Source of the DNA: a virus
Lineage: Duplodnaviria > Caudoviricetes
IMG/VR virus record: IMGVR_UViG_2690315872_000001
Location: 1-64,000 of that record
Length of the DNA: 64,000 bases
Direction: 5' to 3' (one strand)
Of this stretch, positions 3,519 through 12,656 are shown in pieces. The position numbers and the translations under genes were made by a program. The notes under the pieces are model-generated. The model was not told the origin of the DNA and ran no database searches. It worked only from the letters and a program-made list of their open reading frames with translations. Each line of letters begins with the position of its first letter. Positions within the stretch are counted from its first letter, which is position 1.

Positions 3519-3961
3519 CGGTCGCCAGACCCCCGTCGGCACAGCGCCTGCCGTGGCTGCTCACGCCCCCACGCGTGGGTGAGCAGCCGCCGGCGGACCT
3601 CGACACGCCGTTCACGGTCCAGGCGGGCCTCGTGGTCGTCACCGGCACGATCACGTTCACGCTGCTGCCCGGCATGACCTGGCCCGGCACCCAGCAGATT
3701 CCGGAGGCCATCGCCAGCCGCGCCCTGAGTGGCGGCCTGCTGTTCCTGGCGGGCACGTCCCTCACCGCCCCCACCAGCGAGGACCTGCGCCGCGCGCTCA
3801 CTCCGCTTATCGTGCACTTCCTGCAGGCCGTCCCCACGCGCGACGCCCACCGCGTCCTGGCCGCACTGACCGGCGTGACGGTCGAGAGCGCCGTCGACTT
3901 CGGCATCCTCTTCAACGTCAGCCGCGAGACGGGCGGCCGCGCCCTCCGGAGTACTCCATGA
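3515..3961 (+). CDS. Hypothetical protein
   Basis: Coupled by overlaps on both sides. Confidence 0.55.
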
Positions 3962-4668
3962 CCCACCCTGAACCTGCCCGCACTGACGTCAGTGCGCCCG
4001 CCCCCCTGACCGCCCCGATCGCCATCGGCGACGTGCACGGCTGCCTCGTGGAACTCGACGAGCTGCTCGAGCAACTCCCCCCAGACCGCCACCTCGTGTT
4101 CCTCGGGGACTACGTGGACCGGGGGCCGGACAGTCGCGGCGTCCTGGCCCGCGTCCGCGCGCTCGTCGAAGCGGGCCGCGCCACGGCCCTGCTCGGCAAT
4201 CACGACGAGATGATGATCAACAGCCTCCTGAACGCCGACGAGGGCGCCCGCGAGATCTGGCTGCGCAACGGCGGCCAGGCCACCCTCGACAACTACACCA
4301 GTGAAGCCGAGGCGGCCCAGGACGCCCTGTGGATGCAGGAGCACCTGCACCCGCACGTCACCATCGGCCCGGTCCTGTTCAGCCACGCCATGCGCCCCGA
4401 CCCGACCGGCCAGGACGTCCACGCGCACCTCTGGGGCCGCCCCAACACCGCCGACACACCCTTCTACCCACTGCCCGAAGGCGTGACGCACAGCGTGCAC
4501 GGGCACACACCCATGATGTACGGCCCCACCTGCCTGCAACCCAACGACGGGACCGTCGCCGTGTTCATCGACACCGGCTGCGTGTTCGGCCGGACCCTCA
4601 CCGCGATCGACACCGCCACCTGGGCGGCCCTGAGCGTCCCCGCCCGGCCCGCCACCCCCACCCCCTGA
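3958..4668 (+). CDS. Calcineurin-like metallophosphoesterase (lambda NinI/PrpA-like Ser/Thr phosphatase)
   Basis: [23 protein letters not shown] and IDTG motifs. Confidence 0.93.
3979..3996. repeat. 18-bp palindrome copy 1 (CGCACTGACGTCAGTGCG), inside CDS
   Basis: Perfect palindrome, encodes RTDVSA. Confidence 0.9.
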
Positions 4669-8561: not shown

Positions 8562-8951
8562 ATCATCCCCAAGAAAGCCGCCCGCCCCCGCCCCTGGCAC
8601 GACAGCGCCCGCACCCTCACCCCGGACGCGTTCTACCTCCAGCTGCGTACGTGGCCCGACCAGCTGCTCACCGACCGGCAAACCGACGCCGAGCACCTCC
8701 CCGAAGACCACCAGGCGTACCTGCGCGCTGAACACGAGTACCGGCAGCGCAACGCCCACCGTGACCCGTGGAGCACCGTGTCCACCCTGTACAGCCTGCA
8801 GGCCTGGACCACGCACCTGAAGACCTGGACGCGCAGCCGCCTCCAGCAGGCCCAGGCGCACGCCAGCAAACTCCCACCCGAGTACGCCGCCGCCCTGACA
8901 GAGCAGTACCAGTTCCGCCGCGACCGCTGGTGGATCAAAGACACCGACTGA
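8562..8951 (+). CDS. Hypothetical protein with an internal two-fold repeat, apparent ATC start
   Basis: CAGGAGG RBS followed by ATC ATC. Two repeats of W...L.TW...L......LP.....L..E..[YF]R. Confidence 0.55.
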   Translation: MIPKKAARPRPWHDSARTLTPDAFYLQLRTWPDQLLTDRQTDAEHLPEDHQAYLRAEHEYRQRNAHRDPWSTVSTLYSLQAWTTHLKTWTRSRLQQAQAHASKLPPEYAAALTEQYQFRRDRWWIKDTD

Positions 8952-8962
8952 CCGAGGTGCCC

Positions 8963-9208
8963 GTGAGCAACATCCCGTTCGACCCACCCCGACCCAGCAG
9001 TCCCGCCCCCGACCTTACCGGCGACCGGGACCTGGAAATCTGGAACGCCGTCATGTGGGCCTACCACGGTGGACATATCACCCCCGCGCAGGGCAGCGTC
9101 GCCATGCAGATCCCCACCGCGCAGTTCCCGCGCTCCTACACGGTCTGGCACCGTCAGATGATTGGTGGCGACCCACAAGGACCCGAGCGTCAGCAGCAAC
9201 GCCGCTGA
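8963..9208 (+). CDS. Hypothetical protein
   Basis: GAGGTG RBS, GTG at 8963. Confidence 0.55.
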   Translation: MSNIPFDPPRPSSPAPDLTGDRDLEIWNAVMWAYHGGHITPAQGSVAMQIPTAQFPRSYTVWHRQMIGGDPQGPERQQQRR

Positions 9209-9214
9209 TCCCCT

Positions 9215-9515
9215 CCCGCTGGAATGGTTCGCGCCAGCACCCGTGTCCGCAAGGCGCACGGCGAGAGACGACCCGCAACGGCAACCGGCCGGTGCCGCTG
9301 CGCGCCGAGGAGAGGGCCACGCCACATCGAGGGCGTCCGCCTCGGCTCAATTTCCAGAGGACCCACGCGTCCCCTGGGTTCTGACTGCCCAGCGTCGCGC
9401 CTGGGCAGCTGTCAACGGTCCACCTGAACCCGCGTAGCGCATCAGGGAGGGGCAAGTGCCCCGCAGCAGACCCCCAACCGGGTGCGCCCATGGCGCGGGG
9501 GGAAGAAAGCCTGGC
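9215..9515 (+). ncRNA. Candidate structured non-coding RNA upstream of the tRNAs
   Basis: No convincing ORF. Dense helices: CTGGAA/TTCCAG, GCCGAGG/CCTCGGC, AGGACCCA/TGGGTTCT, TGCCCAG/CTGGGCA, CCTGA/TCAGG, GGGGC/GCCCC. Confidence 0.4.
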
Positions 9516-9519
9516 CAGT

Positions 9520-9625
9520 GAGACGGTGAACGAACTGGCAGAGTTGGCTGTGAGAGGACCTGATCAGTCCTGCAATCTCATCGCTTGCCCGCAAGGGCGT
9601 GCGGGTTCGAGTCCCGCCCGTCTCA
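9520..9625 (+). ncRNA. tRNA-like RNA: class II (Leu-like) body with an over-long anticodon arm
   Basis: Acceptor GAGACGG/CCGTCTC plus A. D arm AAC-GAACTGGCAGA-GTT. Variable arm TGCCC-GCAA-GGGCG. T arm GCGGG-TTCGAGT-CCCGC. Anticodon arm about 38 nt. No encoded CCA. Confidence 0.75.
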
Positions 9626-9686
9626 CCCGAGACTCCTGCCACGCGCAGGCAGTCGATCCGGGCACGGCCCCCACCGTGCCCAGCCT

Positions 9687-9763
9687 GTCTCTCTAGCCCA
9701 ACCGGCAGAGGCAGCCGCCTCAAACGCGGCCCAGTGTGGGTTCGACCCCCACGAGAGACACCA
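9687..9763 (+). tRNA. tRNA-Leu(CAA) with a short variable loop
   Basis: GTCTCTC/GAGAGAC acceptor, GCCGC-CTCAAAC-GCGGC anticodon arm, GTGGG-TTCGACC-CCCAC T arm, A-CCA end. 77 nt. Confidence 0.9.
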
Positions 9764-9855
9764 GACGCCGTACACTGACAGCACCGGTACAGGGGCGCAG
9801 CGGTGCCGCAAACACCCGCGACCATGCCGCGACCACACATCCGGCATCCCCCAGC

Positions 9856-9880
9856 GCCCCCGCCATAGCGCGGGGGTTTC
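9856..9880 (+). terminator. Intrinsic terminator after the tRNA locus
   Basis: GCCCCCGC-CATAGC-GCGGGGGT followed by TT. Confidence 0.55.
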
Positions 9881-9902
9881 ACATTCCACGCCGTCCCAGA
9901 CG

Positions 9903-9979
9903 CGATATCGGAATCCCGATATCGGTCCGATATGGGAATCCCCATATCGCCAGCACGTCCCTGGGAATTCCCATGGACC
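9903..9979. promoter_or_regulatory. Palindrome cluster upstream of terS (late regulator site or cos/pac candidate)
   Basis: CGATATCGG-AATC-CCGATATCG, CGATATGGG-AATC-CCCATATCG, then CACGTCCCTGGGAATTCCCATGGACC, which recurs at 14732. Confidence 0.6.
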
Positions 9980-9995
9980 CCCCAGCAAACCCACC

Positions 9996-10013
9996 CGCAC
10001 TGACGTCAGTGCG
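9996..10013. repeat. 18-bp palindrome copy 4, intergenic before terS
   Basis: Perfect CGCACTGACGTCAGTGCG. Confidence 0.9.
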
Positions 10014-10045
10014 CCCCCACCACATCACCCCAGGAGGTGACCCGC

Positions 10046-11008
10046 GTGCCCACACCCAAAAAACCCAAGGCCAAAGCCCGGGCCGCCAAGGCCCCCACCA
10101 CACCAGAACCGCAGAAGCCGGGCACAGCCCAGCCCGCACCCAAGACCCCCAAGACCCGCACCGCCGAGTACCTCGCCAAGACCCGCAGCAAGCCGCAGGT
10201 CACGAACGGCGGGAACCCCTTGCAGAATGCTCAGGTGCAGGAACCCCTTGCAGAATCTGGGGAGCGGCAGCGGAAGCCGAGGGAGCCGGAGCGGATCTGT
10301 GGGGCGGAGGGGAAGCGGGGTGCTGGGCCGTGCCGTCATCCGGCGGGCTTCCGGACGGATCACAAGGGTTCGGGGCGGTGTTACCTGCATGGTGGGTTGA
10401 CGCCGGCGCCGACGGGGCGGTACTCGTCGGTTGAGCGGCCGCGCGTGCGGGAGTTGCTGGAGCGGTTCGAGTCTGATCCGGATCCGTTGAACCTGCTGGC
10501 TGAGGTGCAGCTGTTGCGGGCGCTGCTGCTGGACTTCATCAACCGGTTCGATGAGCAGGACCGCATGTTGACCCGCTGGAACATGAGCTTCGAGAAGTCG
10601 TTTCAGTCGGACTGGGCGGATTGGTGGCGCACGATGCGTGCGGACGCCCTGGAGCGCGAGGATGACCTGAGTGCGGAGTTGGTGGAGCGCATGCCGGATC
10701 CGATGAATTACCTGCCGAGTAAGCCGCTGCGCATGGCGGACATCACGGATGTGTCGCGCCTGATCAAGGAAGTCGGGGCGATGGTGGACCGGATCCGGAA
10801 GGGTCAGCAGGAGAGCACGTTCAGCATGGACGTCATCAATCGCCTGTGGGTGTTGATGGGTGGTCACGTGACGGACGCAGCGATGGAGGTGATTGAGAAC
10901 GATGACATTCGGAGCGCTCTCCTCACCGCCGTGGAAAGCCGGTGGGGAACGATCAGCCTCGCAGAACTCGCCAGCCGCCGCGCTGAGGCAGGCGCGGAAG
11001 CAGGCTGA
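10046..11008 (+). CDS. terS: Terminase small subunit (HGGxSTG-like Cys/His motif)
   Basis: CGAEGKRGAGPC...GRCYLHGG. Directly upstream of terL. AGGAGG RBS 8 nt before GTG 10046. Confidence 0.7.
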   Translation: MPTPKKPKAKARAAKAPTTPEPQKPGTAQPAPKTPKTRTAEYLAKTRSKPQVTNGGNPLQNAQVQEPLAESGERQRKPREPERICGAEGKRGAGPCRHPAGFRTDHKGSGRCYLHGGLTPAPTGRYSSVERPRVRELLERFESDPDPLNLLAEVQLLRALLLDFINRFDEQDRMLTRWNMSFEKSFQSDWADWWRTMRADALEREDDLSAELVERMPDPMNYLPSKPLRMADITDVSRLIKEVGAMVDRIRKGQQESTFSMDVINRLWVLMGGHVTDAAMEVIENDDIRSALLTAVESRWGTISLAELASRRAEAGAEAG

Positions 11009-12656
11009 GCGGTTCACGCAGTACCAGACGAACCCCCTGGGGTACCTGCAGGACATCCTGAACATTCACCCGTGGAAGGGCCGGAACGGGAAGCGCGGGC
11101 AGTACGAGCTGGTCCAGGACATCGGTGAGAGTGTGCGCCGCCAGCTGGAAGGGGACGAGTATGCCCCGAAGATCTTCCGGGTGGACAGCGCGCACGGCGT
11201 CGGGAAGACGTACATCGGCGCGGGTCTCGTGAACTGGTTCTTCGATGCGTTCACGCCGGGCATCACGATCACCACGGCGCCCACGAAGGACCAAGTGGAA
11301 CTGCTGCTCTGGAAGGACATCAAGAGCCAGCGCAAAGGCCGCGGCCTGCCGGGGCGCGTCCTGCCGGAAACGCCCCGCATGGTGAAGGCCGAGAATCACT
11401 GGGCGATCGGCCGCACGACCAGCGACGCGGGCGGTCAGGGTACGGCGCGCGCGCAGGGGCAACACGCGAAATTCATGTTCTTCGTGGTGGACGAAGCGGA
11501 AGGCGTTCCGGCGTACCAGTTCGACGCGATCAACGCCATGATGACCGGCGGCGTCGTGATGATCTGGCTGCTGATCGCCAACCCGCAGACCCGCACGAGC
11601 GCGTTCCACAAGCTCGGGAAGCAACCGGGCGTGCAGAACTACCAGTTCAGCCTGCTGGACTTCCCGAACGTCGTCGAGGGCGTGGATGTCGTGCCGGGCG
11701 GCACGAGCCGCGCGTGGTTGAACAAGATGGTCGCCAAGCACTGCGATCCGGTACTCGCGCACGACCCGGACCGCCTGACGTTCCAATTGGACTGGGACGT
11801 GCTGGTGGAAGGAGAGGACACGGTCTTCCCGGCCGGGATGATCTTCGCGCCGAACGCGGAGTTTCAGTTCCGTGCGCTGGGCGTCCCACCTGCCGCGAAC
11901 GCCGGGGACGCCATGATCAGCACGGCCCGGTTCGAGCAGGCCGTCGCGCGAGTGCCGGATCCGGAAGCGGACCGGCACATGGCGCAGATTGGCGTGGACG
12001 CCGCGCGGTTCGGGTCGGACGCCGGGAACGTCTGGCTGTACCACGGGCGGGTGCTGACGCGCGAAGCGGAACTGCGGCAGGTGGACGACTTCATGTACGC
12101 CGCCGAGATGAAACGCGCCGCGTTGAAAGCCATCCGCGCCGGTGCGAAGACCGTCAGTTTCCGTGTGGACGGCACTGGCGGGTACGGCGGCGGGAAGATC
12201 GACATTGCCAAGGCGGACGCGGAACTTCACGAGGCCGCGCAGGCCGCCGGGTGCACCCTCGTCTTCCACGAGGTGCAGTTCAATCACGTCCCGCACGACC
12301 CTGAACGGTACTACGACCGCGCGACGGAACTGTACGGCACCAGCAACGACCAGCTGCTCGTCGCCAGTATCCCCAACCCGCCCGAGCACCTGCAGGCTGA
12401 CCTGACCGAGCGCCGCACGCGGTTCATGGCGAAGAACGCCGGTGAGCACCGCCGCATCGTCCGGAAACTTGAAAGCAAGGACGATTTCAAGGCCCGCGTC
12501 CGGCCCGCCCGCAGCCCCGACGACGGGGACGGCGCGGCCCTCAGCCTCGCGGACGAAGTGATCTTCACGCCGCCCCCGCAGGACACCCCGCAGGTCACGC
12601 TCAGCGACCTGAGTAACATCCGCAACGCCTTCAACCGCCGCCTGAAAGGAAGGTGA
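10893..12656 (+). CDS. terL: Terminase large subunit
   Basis: Walker A SAHGVGKT, Walker B VVDEAEG, IANP coupling motif, nuclease GVDAARFGSD and SPDDGD. Exact start uncertain. Confidence 0.93.
   Translation: MRTMTFGALSSPPWKAGGERSASQNSPAAALRQARKQAERFTQYQTNPLGYLQDILNIHPWKGRNGKRGQYELVQDIGESVRRQLEGDEYAPKIFRVDSAHGVGKTYIGAGLVNWFFDAFTPGITITTAPTKDQVELLLWKDIKSQRKGRGLPGRVLPETPRMVKAENHWAIGRTTSDAGGQGTARAQGQHAKFMFFVVDEAEGVPAYQFDAINAMMTGGVVMIWLLIANPQTRTSAFHKLGKQPGVQNYQFSLLDFPNVVEGVDVVPGGTSRAWLNKMVAKHCDPVLAHDPDRLTFQLDWDVLVEGEDTVFPAGMIFAPNAEFQFRALGVPPAANAGDAMISTARFEQAVARVPDPEADRHMAQIGVDAARFGSDAGNVWLYHGRVLTREAELRQVDDFMYAAEMKRAALKAIRAGAKTVSFRVDGTGGYGGGKIDIAKADAELHEAAQAAGCTLVFHEVQFNHVPHDPERYYDRATELYGTSNDQLLVASIPNPPEHLQADLTERRTRFMAKNAGEHRRIVRKLESKDDFKARVRPARSPDDGDGAALSLADEVIFTPPPQDTPQVTLSDLSNIRNAFNRRLKGR

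What the first reader, a model, noticed from the sequence alone, without database searches (positions are those of the whole stretch)
9520..9625. tRNA-like RNA with an intact class II body and an anticodon arm about twice normal length
Seen: the acceptor (GAGACGG/CCGTCTC, A discriminator), Leu-like D arm, GCAA-capped variable arm and T arm all pair cleanly. The anticodon arm is about 38 nt instead of 17. It has a lower helix GC.GTGAGA/TCTCAT.GC, a 3' bulge (TGCAA) and an apical helix GGAC/GTCC closing a 7-nt loop CTGATCA, whose central triplet is GAT. No CCA is encoded. Known: bacterial LeuRS largely ignores the anticodon, so such a body could still be charged. Inference: pairing is kept throughout the extension, which argues against simple decay. 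It could be a tRNA mimic (decoy for anticodon nucleases, aminoacyl donor or ribosome/EF-Tu modulator) or a precursor with a small excised insert.
Basis: partly seen in the sequence, partly recalled or inferred. Interest (0 to 1): 0.85.

Follow-up and report, generated by a model that had tools for sequence, protein, structure and literature searches.

The report
Phage tRNA-like RNA with elongated arm
A Deinococcus prophage carries a conserved gene for an RNA shaped like a leucine tRNA whose anticodon arm is replaced by a long, variable hairpin, so it probably acts as a tRNA look-alike rather than a decoder, by a mechanism not yet known.

Summary
Window 9520-9628 (+) encodes a 109-nt cloverleaf. 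Its acceptor, D, long variable and T arms are of tRNA-Leu type. Its anticodon-side arm is 38 nt. ARAGORN and Rfam do not call it.

It is a real, selected RNA. Four homologues exist: three of the 110 other Deinococcus genomes searched and one IMG/VR contig. They keep the body and change the stems by compensatory substitutions:
- acceptor: 5 of 7 pairs
- T stem: 2 of 5 pairs
- extended arm: 6 of 13 pairs among the three copies with the CUGAUCA loop

All five have an abnormal arm (23-52 nt) with no conserved anticodon. Intron-aware ARAGORN gives Cys, Gly, none, His and Ala, so the excised-insert reading is not supported.

In three of the four homologue-bearing genomes with enough context (window, G133, G001), the gene lies just upstream of the phage terminase genes.

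Best reading (0.5): a processed, non-decoding tRNA mimic built on a tRNA-Leu chassis. Its partner is unknown. No expression data were available.

It is a new variant of the tRNA-like RNA kind. In passing, I found tRNA genes in many Deinococcus genomes that carry a conserved pseudoknot-like insert.

The parts
9520..9526 (+). acceptor stem, 5' strand (GAGACGG)
   Evidence: Pairs with 9618-9624. 5 of 7 acceptor pairs show changes on both sides across five homologues.
9527..9546 (+). U8 G9, 3-bp D stem (AAC/GTT), 11-nt D loop GAACTGGCAGA with GG, and G26
   Evidence: Invariant or nearly so in all five members. The D loop is like that of host tRNA-Leu genes. 20 of 20 bases are identical to the IMG/VR copy.
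9547..9584 (+). extended anticodon-side arm, 38 nt. Base pairs G-C and C-G, then a conserved U x C mismatch. Lower helix to 9555/9576. Apical helix 9556-9559/9567-9570. 7-nt loop CTGATCA 9560-9566. 3' bulge TGCAA 9571-9575.
   Evidence: Sequence and fold. 6 of 13 pairs have compensatory changes in the three copies with this loop. The distal part is replaced in G133 (52 nt) and in the IMG/VR copy (23 nt).
9585..9600 (+). long variable arm TT-GCCC-GCAA-GGGC-GT (class II tRNA feature)
   Evidence: Invariant in all five members. Together with the T arm it is about 97% identical to genuine tRNA-Leu genes of related genera.
9601..9617 (+). T arm GCGGG-TTCGAGT-CCCGC
   Evidence: 2 of 5 pairs have changes on both sides; the T loop TTCRA is kept.
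9618..9628 (+). acceptor stem 3' strand CCGTCTC, discriminator A (9625), then CCC
   Evidence: Sequence. Homologues read ACCA, ACCA, (A)TCCA and CCCA.
9629..9686 (+). spacer with two hairpins (CTGCC..GGCAG; GGGCACGG..CCGTGCCC) between the two RNA genes
   Evidence: 54 of 58 bases are identical to the IMG/VR copy, which is more conserved than the stems of either RNA gene.
9687..9763 (+). neighbouring 77-nt tRNA, anticodon CAA, short variable loop, CCA encoded
   Evidence: ARAGORN; Rfam tRNA 48.8 bits. Present beside the IMG/VR copy with compensatory changes. Absent beside the G001, G128 and G133 copies.
10037..12656 (+). packaging genes directly downstream: a 323-aa gene of unknown family (10037-11008) and the large terminase (10893-12656)
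   Evidence: PHROG terminase large subunit E = 4.3e-15; portal, protease and major head genes follow. The same order is seen in G133. A large terminase of another family lies downstream of the G001 copy.

Best explanation
This is a prophage gene for a stable, non-decoding tRNA-like RNA built on a class II (tRNA-Leu-type) chassis.

Shown:
- The acceptor, D, variable and T arms are kept by selection.
- The anticodon-side arm is always abnormal (23-52 nt) and always folds as a hairpin.
- That arm is stem-conserved among the copies that share the CUGAUCA loop, and is swapped for other hairpins in other phages.

Inferred:
- The transcript is cut out like a tRNA (RNase P at the 5' end; the CCA end is encoded or completed) and folds into an L shape.
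- With an arm of about 13 bp in place of 5 bp, and no conserved anticodon, it cannot read codons on the ribosome.
- It acts in trans as a tRNA mimic. The tRNA body supplies processing, stability and recognition by tRNA-binding proteins (LeuRS, the CCA enzymes, EF-Tu, or a host tRNA-targeting nuclease). The rod-like arm either makes it inert to decoding and cleavage (a decoy) or displays a phage-specific hairpin (a natural 'tRNA scaffold').

Which partner it binds, and whether it is leucylated, are not known.
For: - Not called as a tRNA but a full cloverleaf.
- Single copy in its own genome.
- Four homologues score 104-130 bits on model R1, which was built from these same five sequences, so they match by construction. 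The informative point is that ordinary Deinococcus tRNA-Leu genes score at most 63 bits and 87-nt tRNA-Leu genes of related genera at most 77 bits.
- Covariation: acceptor 5 of 7 pairs, T stem 2 of 5 pairs; 0 of 500 shuffles reach the observed score. Extended arm 6 of 13 pairs.
- The D loop, A15/U48 positions and variable arm are like tRNA-Leu.
- CCA is encoded in 4 of 5 members.
- Arms of 23, 36, 38, 38 and 52 nt all fold as hairpins on the same GC + U x C base.
- No conserved anticodon.
- Between two phages with nearly identical flanks, changes are concentrated in the acceptor stem, T stem and extended arm, while the D arm (20/20) and variable arm (16/16) are unchanged.
- Phage context just upstream of terminase genes in the window, G133 and G001.
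- A second, unrelated-looking cloverleaf lies at the same place in a related G004 prophage. It has a 38-nt anticodon-side arm and an ACCA end. Its G066 homologue differs by changes that restore or keep pairing.
- A review of non-canonical tRNAs, read in passages, lists functional tRNAs with anticodon stems of at most 6 bp (PMC7609411).
Against: - No expression, end-mapping or charging data exist.
- The family is small: five sequences, two of them (G001 and G133) with identical bodies. The covariation counts therefore rest on few independent events.
- Folding energies of the arms are ordinary (z from -1.0 to +0.5).
- The discriminator is A in only 3 of 5 members, so leucylation is not a conserved property by the E. 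coli rule (the rule is recalled, not tested).
- No partner protein gene co-occurs. The G001 and G128 contexts share almost nothing with the window.
- No complementary target for the arm was found above chance.
- One metagenome contig joins 9517 to 9628, so a close relative may lack the gene or carry a replaced copy. Of the 26 loci scanned around homologues of the downstream 323-aa gene (21 other genomes), only the G133 and G004 loci had a tRNA-like element. The RNA is therefore accessory.
Confidence: 0.5

Rival explanations
1. It is a precursor of a decoding tRNA. The extra 6-35 nt are an intervening sequence removed after transcription, leaving a normal 17-nt anticodon arm.
For: Many other Deinococcus tRNA genes in arrays carry 40-118-nt inserts next to an otherwise canonical anticodon loop, so interrupted tRNA genes exist in this genus. 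The body of this RNA is nearer to those class II array genes (59-69% ungapped identity for nine of the ten compared, 50% for the tenth) than to the host's tRNA-Leu genes (49-59%).
Against: No deletion gives a conserved anticodon: ARAGORN in intron mode gives Cys(GCA), Gly(GCC), nothing, His(GTG) and Ala(CGC) for five RNAs with one body. The 7 nt before the 3' strand of the stem never have U at position 33 (read). The conserved insert motif of the array genes is absent here (no match in the window's own genome). No bulge-helix-bulge is present. The arm itself covaries as a helix.
Confidence: 0.08
2. It is a cis-acting processing or punctuation element of the late transcript. The tRNA-like fold recruits RNase P or RNase Z to set the 5' end, or the stability, of the terminase mRNA, and the excised RNA has no function of its own.
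For: It lies on the same strand, 35-500 nt upstream of the packaging genes, in the window, G133 and G001, as does the analogous element in G004. No sigma-70-like promoter was found between 8900 and 10200.
Against: A processing signal needs only an acceptor/T minihelix. Here the D loop, variable arm and encoded CCA are kept unchanged and the long arm covaries. In G128 the downstream ORFs are on the opposite strand. In the window a second tRNA and a GC-rich hairpin lie between the RNA and the packaging genes.
Confidence: 0.12
3. It is a leucine-charged donor for a reaction outside the ribosome (an aminoacyl-transferase type of use), kept off the ribosome by its arm.
For: The Leu-type D loop, A15/U48 positions and long variable arm are kept. 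A73 is present in the window, G001 and G133. That bacterial LeuRS does not read the anticodon is recalled, not tested here.
Against: The discriminator is not A in 2 of 5 members. No aminoacyl-transferase-like gene was recognised among the 19 neighbouring window proteins scanned (10 against Pfam and PHROGs; 9 more against Pfam and/or NCBIfam). The related class II array genes mostly have C at the discriminator position.
Confidence: 0.1
4. It is a decaying tRNA-Leu pseudogene, or a DNA-level site (attachment or packaging site) that merely looks like a tRNA.
For: It is accessory and rare: the window's genome plus 3 of the 110 other genus genomes. One member (G128) has a mismatch at pair 1-72. The arm varies greatly.
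Against: There are multiple compensatory changes on both strands of the acceptor stem, the T stem and the arm. It lies inside the prophage, between phage genes, not at a prophage end. The same copy, 4 differences in 396 bases in the spanning contig (X1) and a few differences in the pieces from the other three, is held in metagenome contigs of four studies.
Confidence: 0.05

Closest known systems
Bacterial class II tRNA-Leu
   Same: 7-bp acceptor stem; U8; 3-bp D stem; D loop GAAYYGGYAGA with G18G19; long variable arm; T loop TTCRA; A73 in the window. The variable and T arms are about 97% identical to real tRNA-Leu genes of related genera.
   Different: The anticodon arm is 23-52 nt instead of 17, with no Leu anticodon. 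The D stem is AAC/GTT instead of GCG/CGC. The acceptor 5' strand is purine-rich. tRNA finders do not call it.
Phage T4 small RNAs RNAC and RNAD, encoded in the tRNA gene region
   Same: Small phage RNAs encoded among tRNA genes whose roles are unknown (PMC3014915, one passage read). That they have tRNA-like ends is recalled, not read.
   Different: No sequence comparison was made. The host and phage type are different.
Bacterial Y RNAs (Deinococcus Y RNA RF01053, YrlA RF02553)
   Same: Non-coding RNAs with a tRNA-like module. The variable-arm-plus-T-arm stretch gives the best weak Rfam match (RF01053, model positions 52-83).
   Different: Scores are far below threshold: 17.9 against 80 bits, and 14.7 against 69 bits. 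In YrlA the RNA ends come from the stem opposite the acceptor (recalled; abstract of 10.1101/312249 seen in the listing). Here the ends are at the acceptor stem. No RF01053 match exists in the window's own genome.
tRNA-like domain of tmRNA
   Same: Acceptor and T arm, with a long helix where the anticodon stem would be. The 'family B' element of G004 and G066, with its reduced D arm, resembles this most.
   Different: No mRNA-like part or tag reading frame. No tmRNA was called by ARAGORN in the window. There is no G3-U70 pair (sequence).
[quoted passage not shown]
   Same: tRNA-shaped RNAs with extra or altered stems, some not usable in translation and thought to be linked to mobile elements (PMC7609411, passages read).
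   Different: Those have 8/4 or 9/3 acceptor/T geometry and anticodon stems of up to 6 bp. This RNA has 7/5 geometry and an arm of about 13 bp.
Engineered 'tRNA scaffold' chimeras (recalled from the literature; no paper read)
   Same: A tRNA body in which the anticodon stem-loop is replaced by a cargo hairpin, so that the cell processes and stabilises the chimera.
   Different: That is a laboratory design. This would be a natural counterpart with an unknown cargo function.

Membership tests
Canonical tRNA (Rfam RF00005; ARAGORN) | Scores at or above the family threshold, or is called by a tRNA finder | tested here: not met
   No RF00005 match at 9520-9628 at gathering score or at E <= 10. The best clan match is tRNA-Sec at 17.6 bits against a threshold of 47. 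ARAGORN in default mode does not call it. It does call the 94-nt IMG/VR copy, as an odd 'tRNA-Gly'.
Canonical tRNA | 7-bp acceptor stem, D arm with GG, T arm with TTCRA, L-shape tertiary positions | tested here: met
   Sequence, alignment and covariation.
Canonical tRNA | 5-bp anticodon stem with a 7-nt loop and a conserved anticodon | tested here: not met
   The arms are 38, 38, 36, 52 and 23 nt. No anticodon is common to the members.
tRNA-Leu (LeuRS substrate) | A73 discriminator and a Leu-type D loop with A15-U48 (the E. coli identity rules are recalled) | tested here: inconclusive
   The D loop and the A15/U48 positions are kept in 5 of 5 members. A73 is present in 3 of 5. Charging cannot be tested with these tools.
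Intron-containing tRNA | Removing the insert restores a canonical anticodon arm with the same anticodon in homologues | tested here: not met
   ARAGORN -i gives Cys, Gly, none, His and Ala. No bulge-helix-bulge is present. The insert is far too short for a group I intron (a size argument from general knowledge).
tmRNA | tRNA-like ends plus a tag reading frame | tested here: not met
   ARAGORN finds no tmRNA in the window. At 109 nt there is no room for a reading frame.
Y RNA / YrlA | Rfam score at or above gathering; a Ro-binding stem formed by the RNA ends | tested here: not met
   17.9 against 80 bits and 14.7 against 69 bits. The ends form an acceptor stem.
Insert-bearing tRNA genes of Deinococcus arrays (seen in passing) | Conserved insert motif CTTGYCY..GGGCCGA..RGGNTKA just 5' of a canonical anticodon loop | tested here: not met
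   The pattern has no match in the window's own genome, and the motif is absent from all five arms. The bodies are, however, related.

The most novel reading that the evidence does not exclude
Deinococcus phages use a tRNA chassis as a natural display scaffold. The conserved class II body secures processing and stability. The exchangeable rod-like arm is a phage-specific functional module: a self-complementary UGAUCA kissing loop in one lineage and other hairpins in others. It could be a decoy or specificity determinant in a phage-host or phage-phage conflict. This RNA would be one face of a larger, undescribed repertoire of remodelled tRNA genes on Deinococcus mobile elements, which includes 'family B' and the pseudoknot-insert tRNA genes with differing anticodons.
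Probability: 0.25. Interest if true: 0.85.

Novelty: new variant of a known kind. Interest (0 to 1): 0.62.

Why it matters
tRNA-like RNAs that do not decode (tmRNA, Y RNAs, viral tRNA-like structures) have each revealed a new use of the tRNA fold. This one is a compact case under clear structural selection in phages. The recognition half of a tRNA is frozen while the decoding half has been turned into a variable rod.

If it is charged, it is a natural non-decoding aminoacyl-RNA. If it is a decoy, it points to a host system in Deinococcus that targets class II tRNAs. If the arm is cargo, it is a natural precedent for tRNA-scaffold designs.

It also shows that standard tRNA finders and Rfam miss a whole set of odd tRNA-derived genes on Deinococcus mobile elements.

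Tried and rejected
**Searches that did not enlarge the family**
- A loose D-arm pattern in metagenome contigs gave 119 stretches, of which 80 loci were returned. None was a member: model R1 found only ordinary tRNAs, in one locus.
- The variable-arm pattern in IMG/VR gave one chance hit in a coding region besides the true member.
- PLSDB plasmids and INPHARED phages gave only 26-33% coverage matches to the variable and T arms of ordinary tRNA-Leu genes.
- The large terminase as a query in IMG/VR returned only the same contig as before.
- Order-level search with R1 (151 genomes, a sample) found no member outside the genus.

**Expression**
- No RNA holder was listed. The four runs laid were DNA contigs.

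**Target search**
- The 28-nt inner arm was compared with the whole genome. The best matches outside itself were 15 nt at E = 0.05, on the sense strand. CTGATCAG occurs 4 times in the window. Nothing was above chance.

**RNA repair link**
- The protein at 3583-4668 matched the phosphatase part of bacterial Pnkp. The real product starts near residue 125 and has no P-loop, and Pfam gives only Metallophos. It is a lambda-type phosphatase, so I dropped this lead.

**Y RNA link**
- Only sub-threshold matches in the window and no match in the window's own genome.

**Other**
- Promoter and terminator scan of 8900-10200: no promoter-like site and nothing useful on the + strand.
- No structure or complex prediction was run, because no protein partner is proposed.
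- Supplementary files of papers were not needed and were not opened.

Full report
**1. What is in the sequence**

Window 9520-9628 (+) reads as a complete cloverleaf:
- acceptor GAGACGG / CCGTCTC
- U8 G9
- a 3-bp D stem AAC/GTT around an 11-nt loop GAACTGGCAGA
- G26
- a 38-nt arm at 9547-9584
- a long variable arm TT-GCCC-GCAA-GGGC-GT
- T arm GCGGG-TTCGAGT-CCCGC
- discriminator A, then CCC

The arm has nine lower pairs (GC, a U x C mismatch, G.U, then UGAGA/UCUCA), a 5-nt 3' bulge (UGCAA) and an apical GGAC/GUCC helix closing CUGAUCA.

ARAGORN finds only the neighbouring 77-nt tRNA at 9687-9763. Rfam at gathering score finds only that one too. At E <= 10 the candidate gives only sub-threshold matches: Deinococcus Y RNA 17.9 against 80 bits over the variable and T arms, tRNA-Sec 17.6 against 47, and YrlA 14.7 against 69.

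Energy alone is weak evidence. The whole RNA has z = -2.2, and the MFE fold keeps the acceptor stem, long arm and variable hairpin but not the D and T arms. The arm alone has z = -1.0.

**2. Homologues and selection**

The RNA is single-copy in its own genome.

BLAST over 111 genomes of the genus found full-length relatives in G001 (89%), G128 (80%) and G133 (75%, 14 nt longer). A pattern scan of IMG/VR added a fifth copy. The genome-contig scan named G133 as Deinococcus xinjiangensis and G128 as a metagenome-assembled genome.

I built covariance model R1 from the five sequences. These match by construction, at 104-130 bits. What matters is the gap below them. Ordinary Deinococcus tRNA-Leu genes score at most 63 bits. 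The 87-nt tRNA-Leu genes of related genera score at most 77 bits in a sample of 151 genomes of the order. No member was found outside the genus among those searched.

Across the five sequences:
- The D arm and variable arm are invariant or nearly so.
- The acceptor stem reads GAGACGG, GGAAGCG (twice), GGGGAAG and GGGAAGG, each with its complement. That gives 5 of 7 pairs with changes on both sides.
- The T stem has 2 of 5 such pairs.
- 92% of cells are paired, against 36-53% in slid controls, and 0 of 500 shuffles reach the covariation score.

These counts rest on few events. G001 and G133 share one body, and relatedness inflates shuffle tests.

**3. The arm**

All five arms start with G-C and C-G, then a U x C mismatch kept in all five, and then differ.
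- Three copies (window, G001, G128) carry the same CUGAUCA loop. The helices under it differ: apical GGAC/GUCC, GGGC/GCCC and GAGGC/GCUUC; lower UGAG/CUCA against GAC/GUC. That gives 6 of 13 pairs with changes on both sides and 82% of cells paired, against 34-49% when slid.
- G133 has a 52-nt arm with another apical hairpin (CGCAG-AACA-CUGCG).
- The IMG/VR copy has a 23-nt arm ending in a UCAC tetraloop.
- All five fold as single hairpins.

No anticodon is conserved. ARAGORN in intron mode reads Cys, Gly, nothing, His and Ala. The 7 nt before the 3' strand of the stem never have U33. The 'excised insert' idea is not supported.

The loop core UGAUCA is its own complement. I note this as a possible kissing or dimer site; that is inference only.

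**4. Fast change in a conserved setting**

The IMG/VR phage has nearly the same flanks as the window. Region by region:

| Region | Identity to the IMG/VR copy |
|---|---|
| D arm | 20/20 |
| Variable arm | 16/16 |
| Spacer to the next tRNA | 54/58 |
| Each acceptor strand | 5/7 (compensating) |
| T arm | 14/17 |
| Extended arm | 13/23, plus 15 gap columns |

The neighbouring tRNA shows the same habit (65/77), mostly as compensatory stem changes with one acceptor mismatch (C6 x A67).

So either stems are under pressure to change, or alleles are exchanged between phages with the D and variable arms as fixed anchors.

Metagenome contigs from four studies hold the window's version: one contig (X1) spans 9400-9795 with 4 differences, and the other three runs cover it in pieces with a few differences. 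One contig joins 9517 to 9628, meaning the gene is missing or replaced there. These are DNA data only.

**5. Context**

The window is a prophage or phage-plasmid region. Downstream of the RNA lie a 323-aa gene of unknown family, the large terminase, portal, S49 protease and major head genes. A lambda-type metallophosphatase lies upstream.
- G133 has the same downstream genes (60% and 75% identity).
- G001 has an unrelated large terminase about 650 bp downstream.
- G128 lies on a short contig with a ParA-like gene upstream and opposite-strand ORFs downstream.

No protein is shared by all contexts, so a dedicated phage partner enzyme is unlikely to be encoded nearby.

I scanned 26 loci from 21 other genomes that hold a homologue of the 323-aa gene. 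Only G133 has a member. G004 has something else at the same place: a 90-nt cloverleaf ending in ACCA, with a mini D arm and a 38-nt anticodon-side arm. It has a homologue in G066 that differs by changes that keep or restore pairing in the acceptor stem and by a C-G to U-A change at the arm base, and that has a canonical T loop. I call this 'family B'. It suggests that long-armed tRNA-like RNAs at the head of the packaging module are a recurring feature of these phages.

**6. What it most likely is and does**

Shown: this is a selected RNA with a complete tRNA recognition half and a non-canonical, variable decoding half.

Inferred:
- It is processed as a tRNA. CCA is encoded in 4 of 5 members. 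The window's ACC-C could be finished by the A-adding enzyme that I recall Deinococcus has.
- It is L-shaped.
- It is unable to decode. The review passages read list at most 6-bp anticodon stems in working tRNAs (PMC7609411).

I therefore read it as a trans-acting tRNA mimic (0.5). The body is of tRNA-Leu type, but the discriminator is A in only 3 of 5 members. The nearest relatives of the body are odd class II tRNA-like genes of Deinococcus arrays that mostly have C there. Leucylation is therefore possible but not established.

Rivals:
- late-transcript processing element (0.12)
- leucyl donor (0.10)
- spliced precursor (0.08)
- pseudogene or DNA site (0.05)

**7. Comparison with what is known**

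No Rfam family covers it. The full-text searches turned up no description of such an RNA or of interrupted Deinococcus tRNA genes. This covers only the held library.

The closest kinds are tRNA-Leu itself, T4 RNAC/RNAD (roles unknown; PMC3014915), Y RNA tRNA-like modules, the tmRNA tRNA-like domain, irregular allo-tRNA-like sequences, and engineered tRNA scaffolds (recalled). It fails the membership tests of each family that were tested. I file it as a new variant of the tRNA-like RNA kind.

**8. Side finding**

While scoring R1 I met 147-152-nt matches in G093, G024 and G116. These are tRNA genes in arrays with 40-118-nt inserts placed in or just 5' of the anticodon loop.

The inserts share a motif, CTTGYCY-hairpin-GGGCCGA-N4-10-RGGNTKA, that can be drawn as a small pseudoknot. 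The pattern hits 43 of 111 genus genomes, with 62 matches against 5 for the reversed control. About 4 of 27 IMG/VR hits look genuine.

After the insert comes a canonical loop and 3' strand. Genes with nearly the same body carry different anticodons in different species. Rfam sees only 'tRNA' there. I did not resolve what these inserts are.

Noticed in passing
L103:2852-3291, L102:2870-3316, L104:2842-3294, L028:1244-1680, L231-L242 (other Deinococcus genomes; not in the window): Arrays of tRNA genes each carry a 40-118-nt insert in or just 5' of the anticodon loop. The inserts share the motif CTTGYCY-hairpin-GGGCCGA-N4-10-RGGNTKA, which can be drawn as a pseudoknot. The motif hits 43 of 111 genus genomes (62 matches against 5 for the reversed control). 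Genes with near-identical bodies carry different anticodons in different species. There is no Rfam family and no paper was found. It could be a new kind of bacterial tRNA insert or intron, a ribozyme, or an aptamer.
   Followed up: partly
window 9687-9763 (+); L070:8259-8335: A 77-nt tRNA with the Leu anticodon CAA but a short 5-nt variable loop (class I shape), A73 and an encoded CCA. Its D loop CAACCGGCAGA resembles that of the long-armed RNA. It is conserved in the IMG/VR phage with compensatory changes. Similar 78-nt 'Leu(CAG)' genes head the arrays in L102-L104 and L028. A leucine tRNA without the long variable arm is unusual for bacteria.
   Followed up: partly
L245:1150-1239 (G004) and L272 about 1500-1600 (G066): 'Family B': a 90-nt cloverleaf ending in ACCA, with a mini D arm (CGC-GUGG-GCG), a 38-nt anticodon-side arm and a T arm. 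It lies about 260 nt upstream of a homologue of the window's 323-aa gene. The two copies differ by changes that keep or restore pairing in the acceptor stem and by a C-G to U-A change at the arm base.
   Followed up: partly
L102:3003-3152, L103:3001-3146, L235:1064-1214, L237:1305-1450, L028:1393-1540: Class II (long variable arm, Leu-type D loop) tRNA-like genes whose loop after the insert reads as a Gln-type anticodon (CUG, or UUG in L028). In two others it reads as Pro type. The discriminator is mostly C. The identity of these RNAs is unclear.
   Followed up: no
window 9517/9628: One groundwater metagenome contig (run X5) joins 9517 directly to 9628. A close relative of this phage therefore lacks the RNA gene or carries a copy too different to align. 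The boundaries coincide with the gene ends.
   Followed up: no
window about 3955-4668 (+): A lambda-type metallophosphatase (Pfam Metallophos, E = 2.9e-14) lies upstream of the RNA genes, as in the nin region of lambdoid phages. Its match to the phosphatase part of bacterial Pnkp does not extend to a kinase or ligase part.
   Followed up: yes
L280, L288, L294 (IMG/VR contigs, GC about 0.5): The same GGGCCGA..RGGGTTA motif lies directly before an anticodon-like hairpin (TTCAA-CTGCTAA-TTGAA) in viral contigs of lower GC. The insert motif may therefore reach beyond Deinococcus.
   Followed up: no
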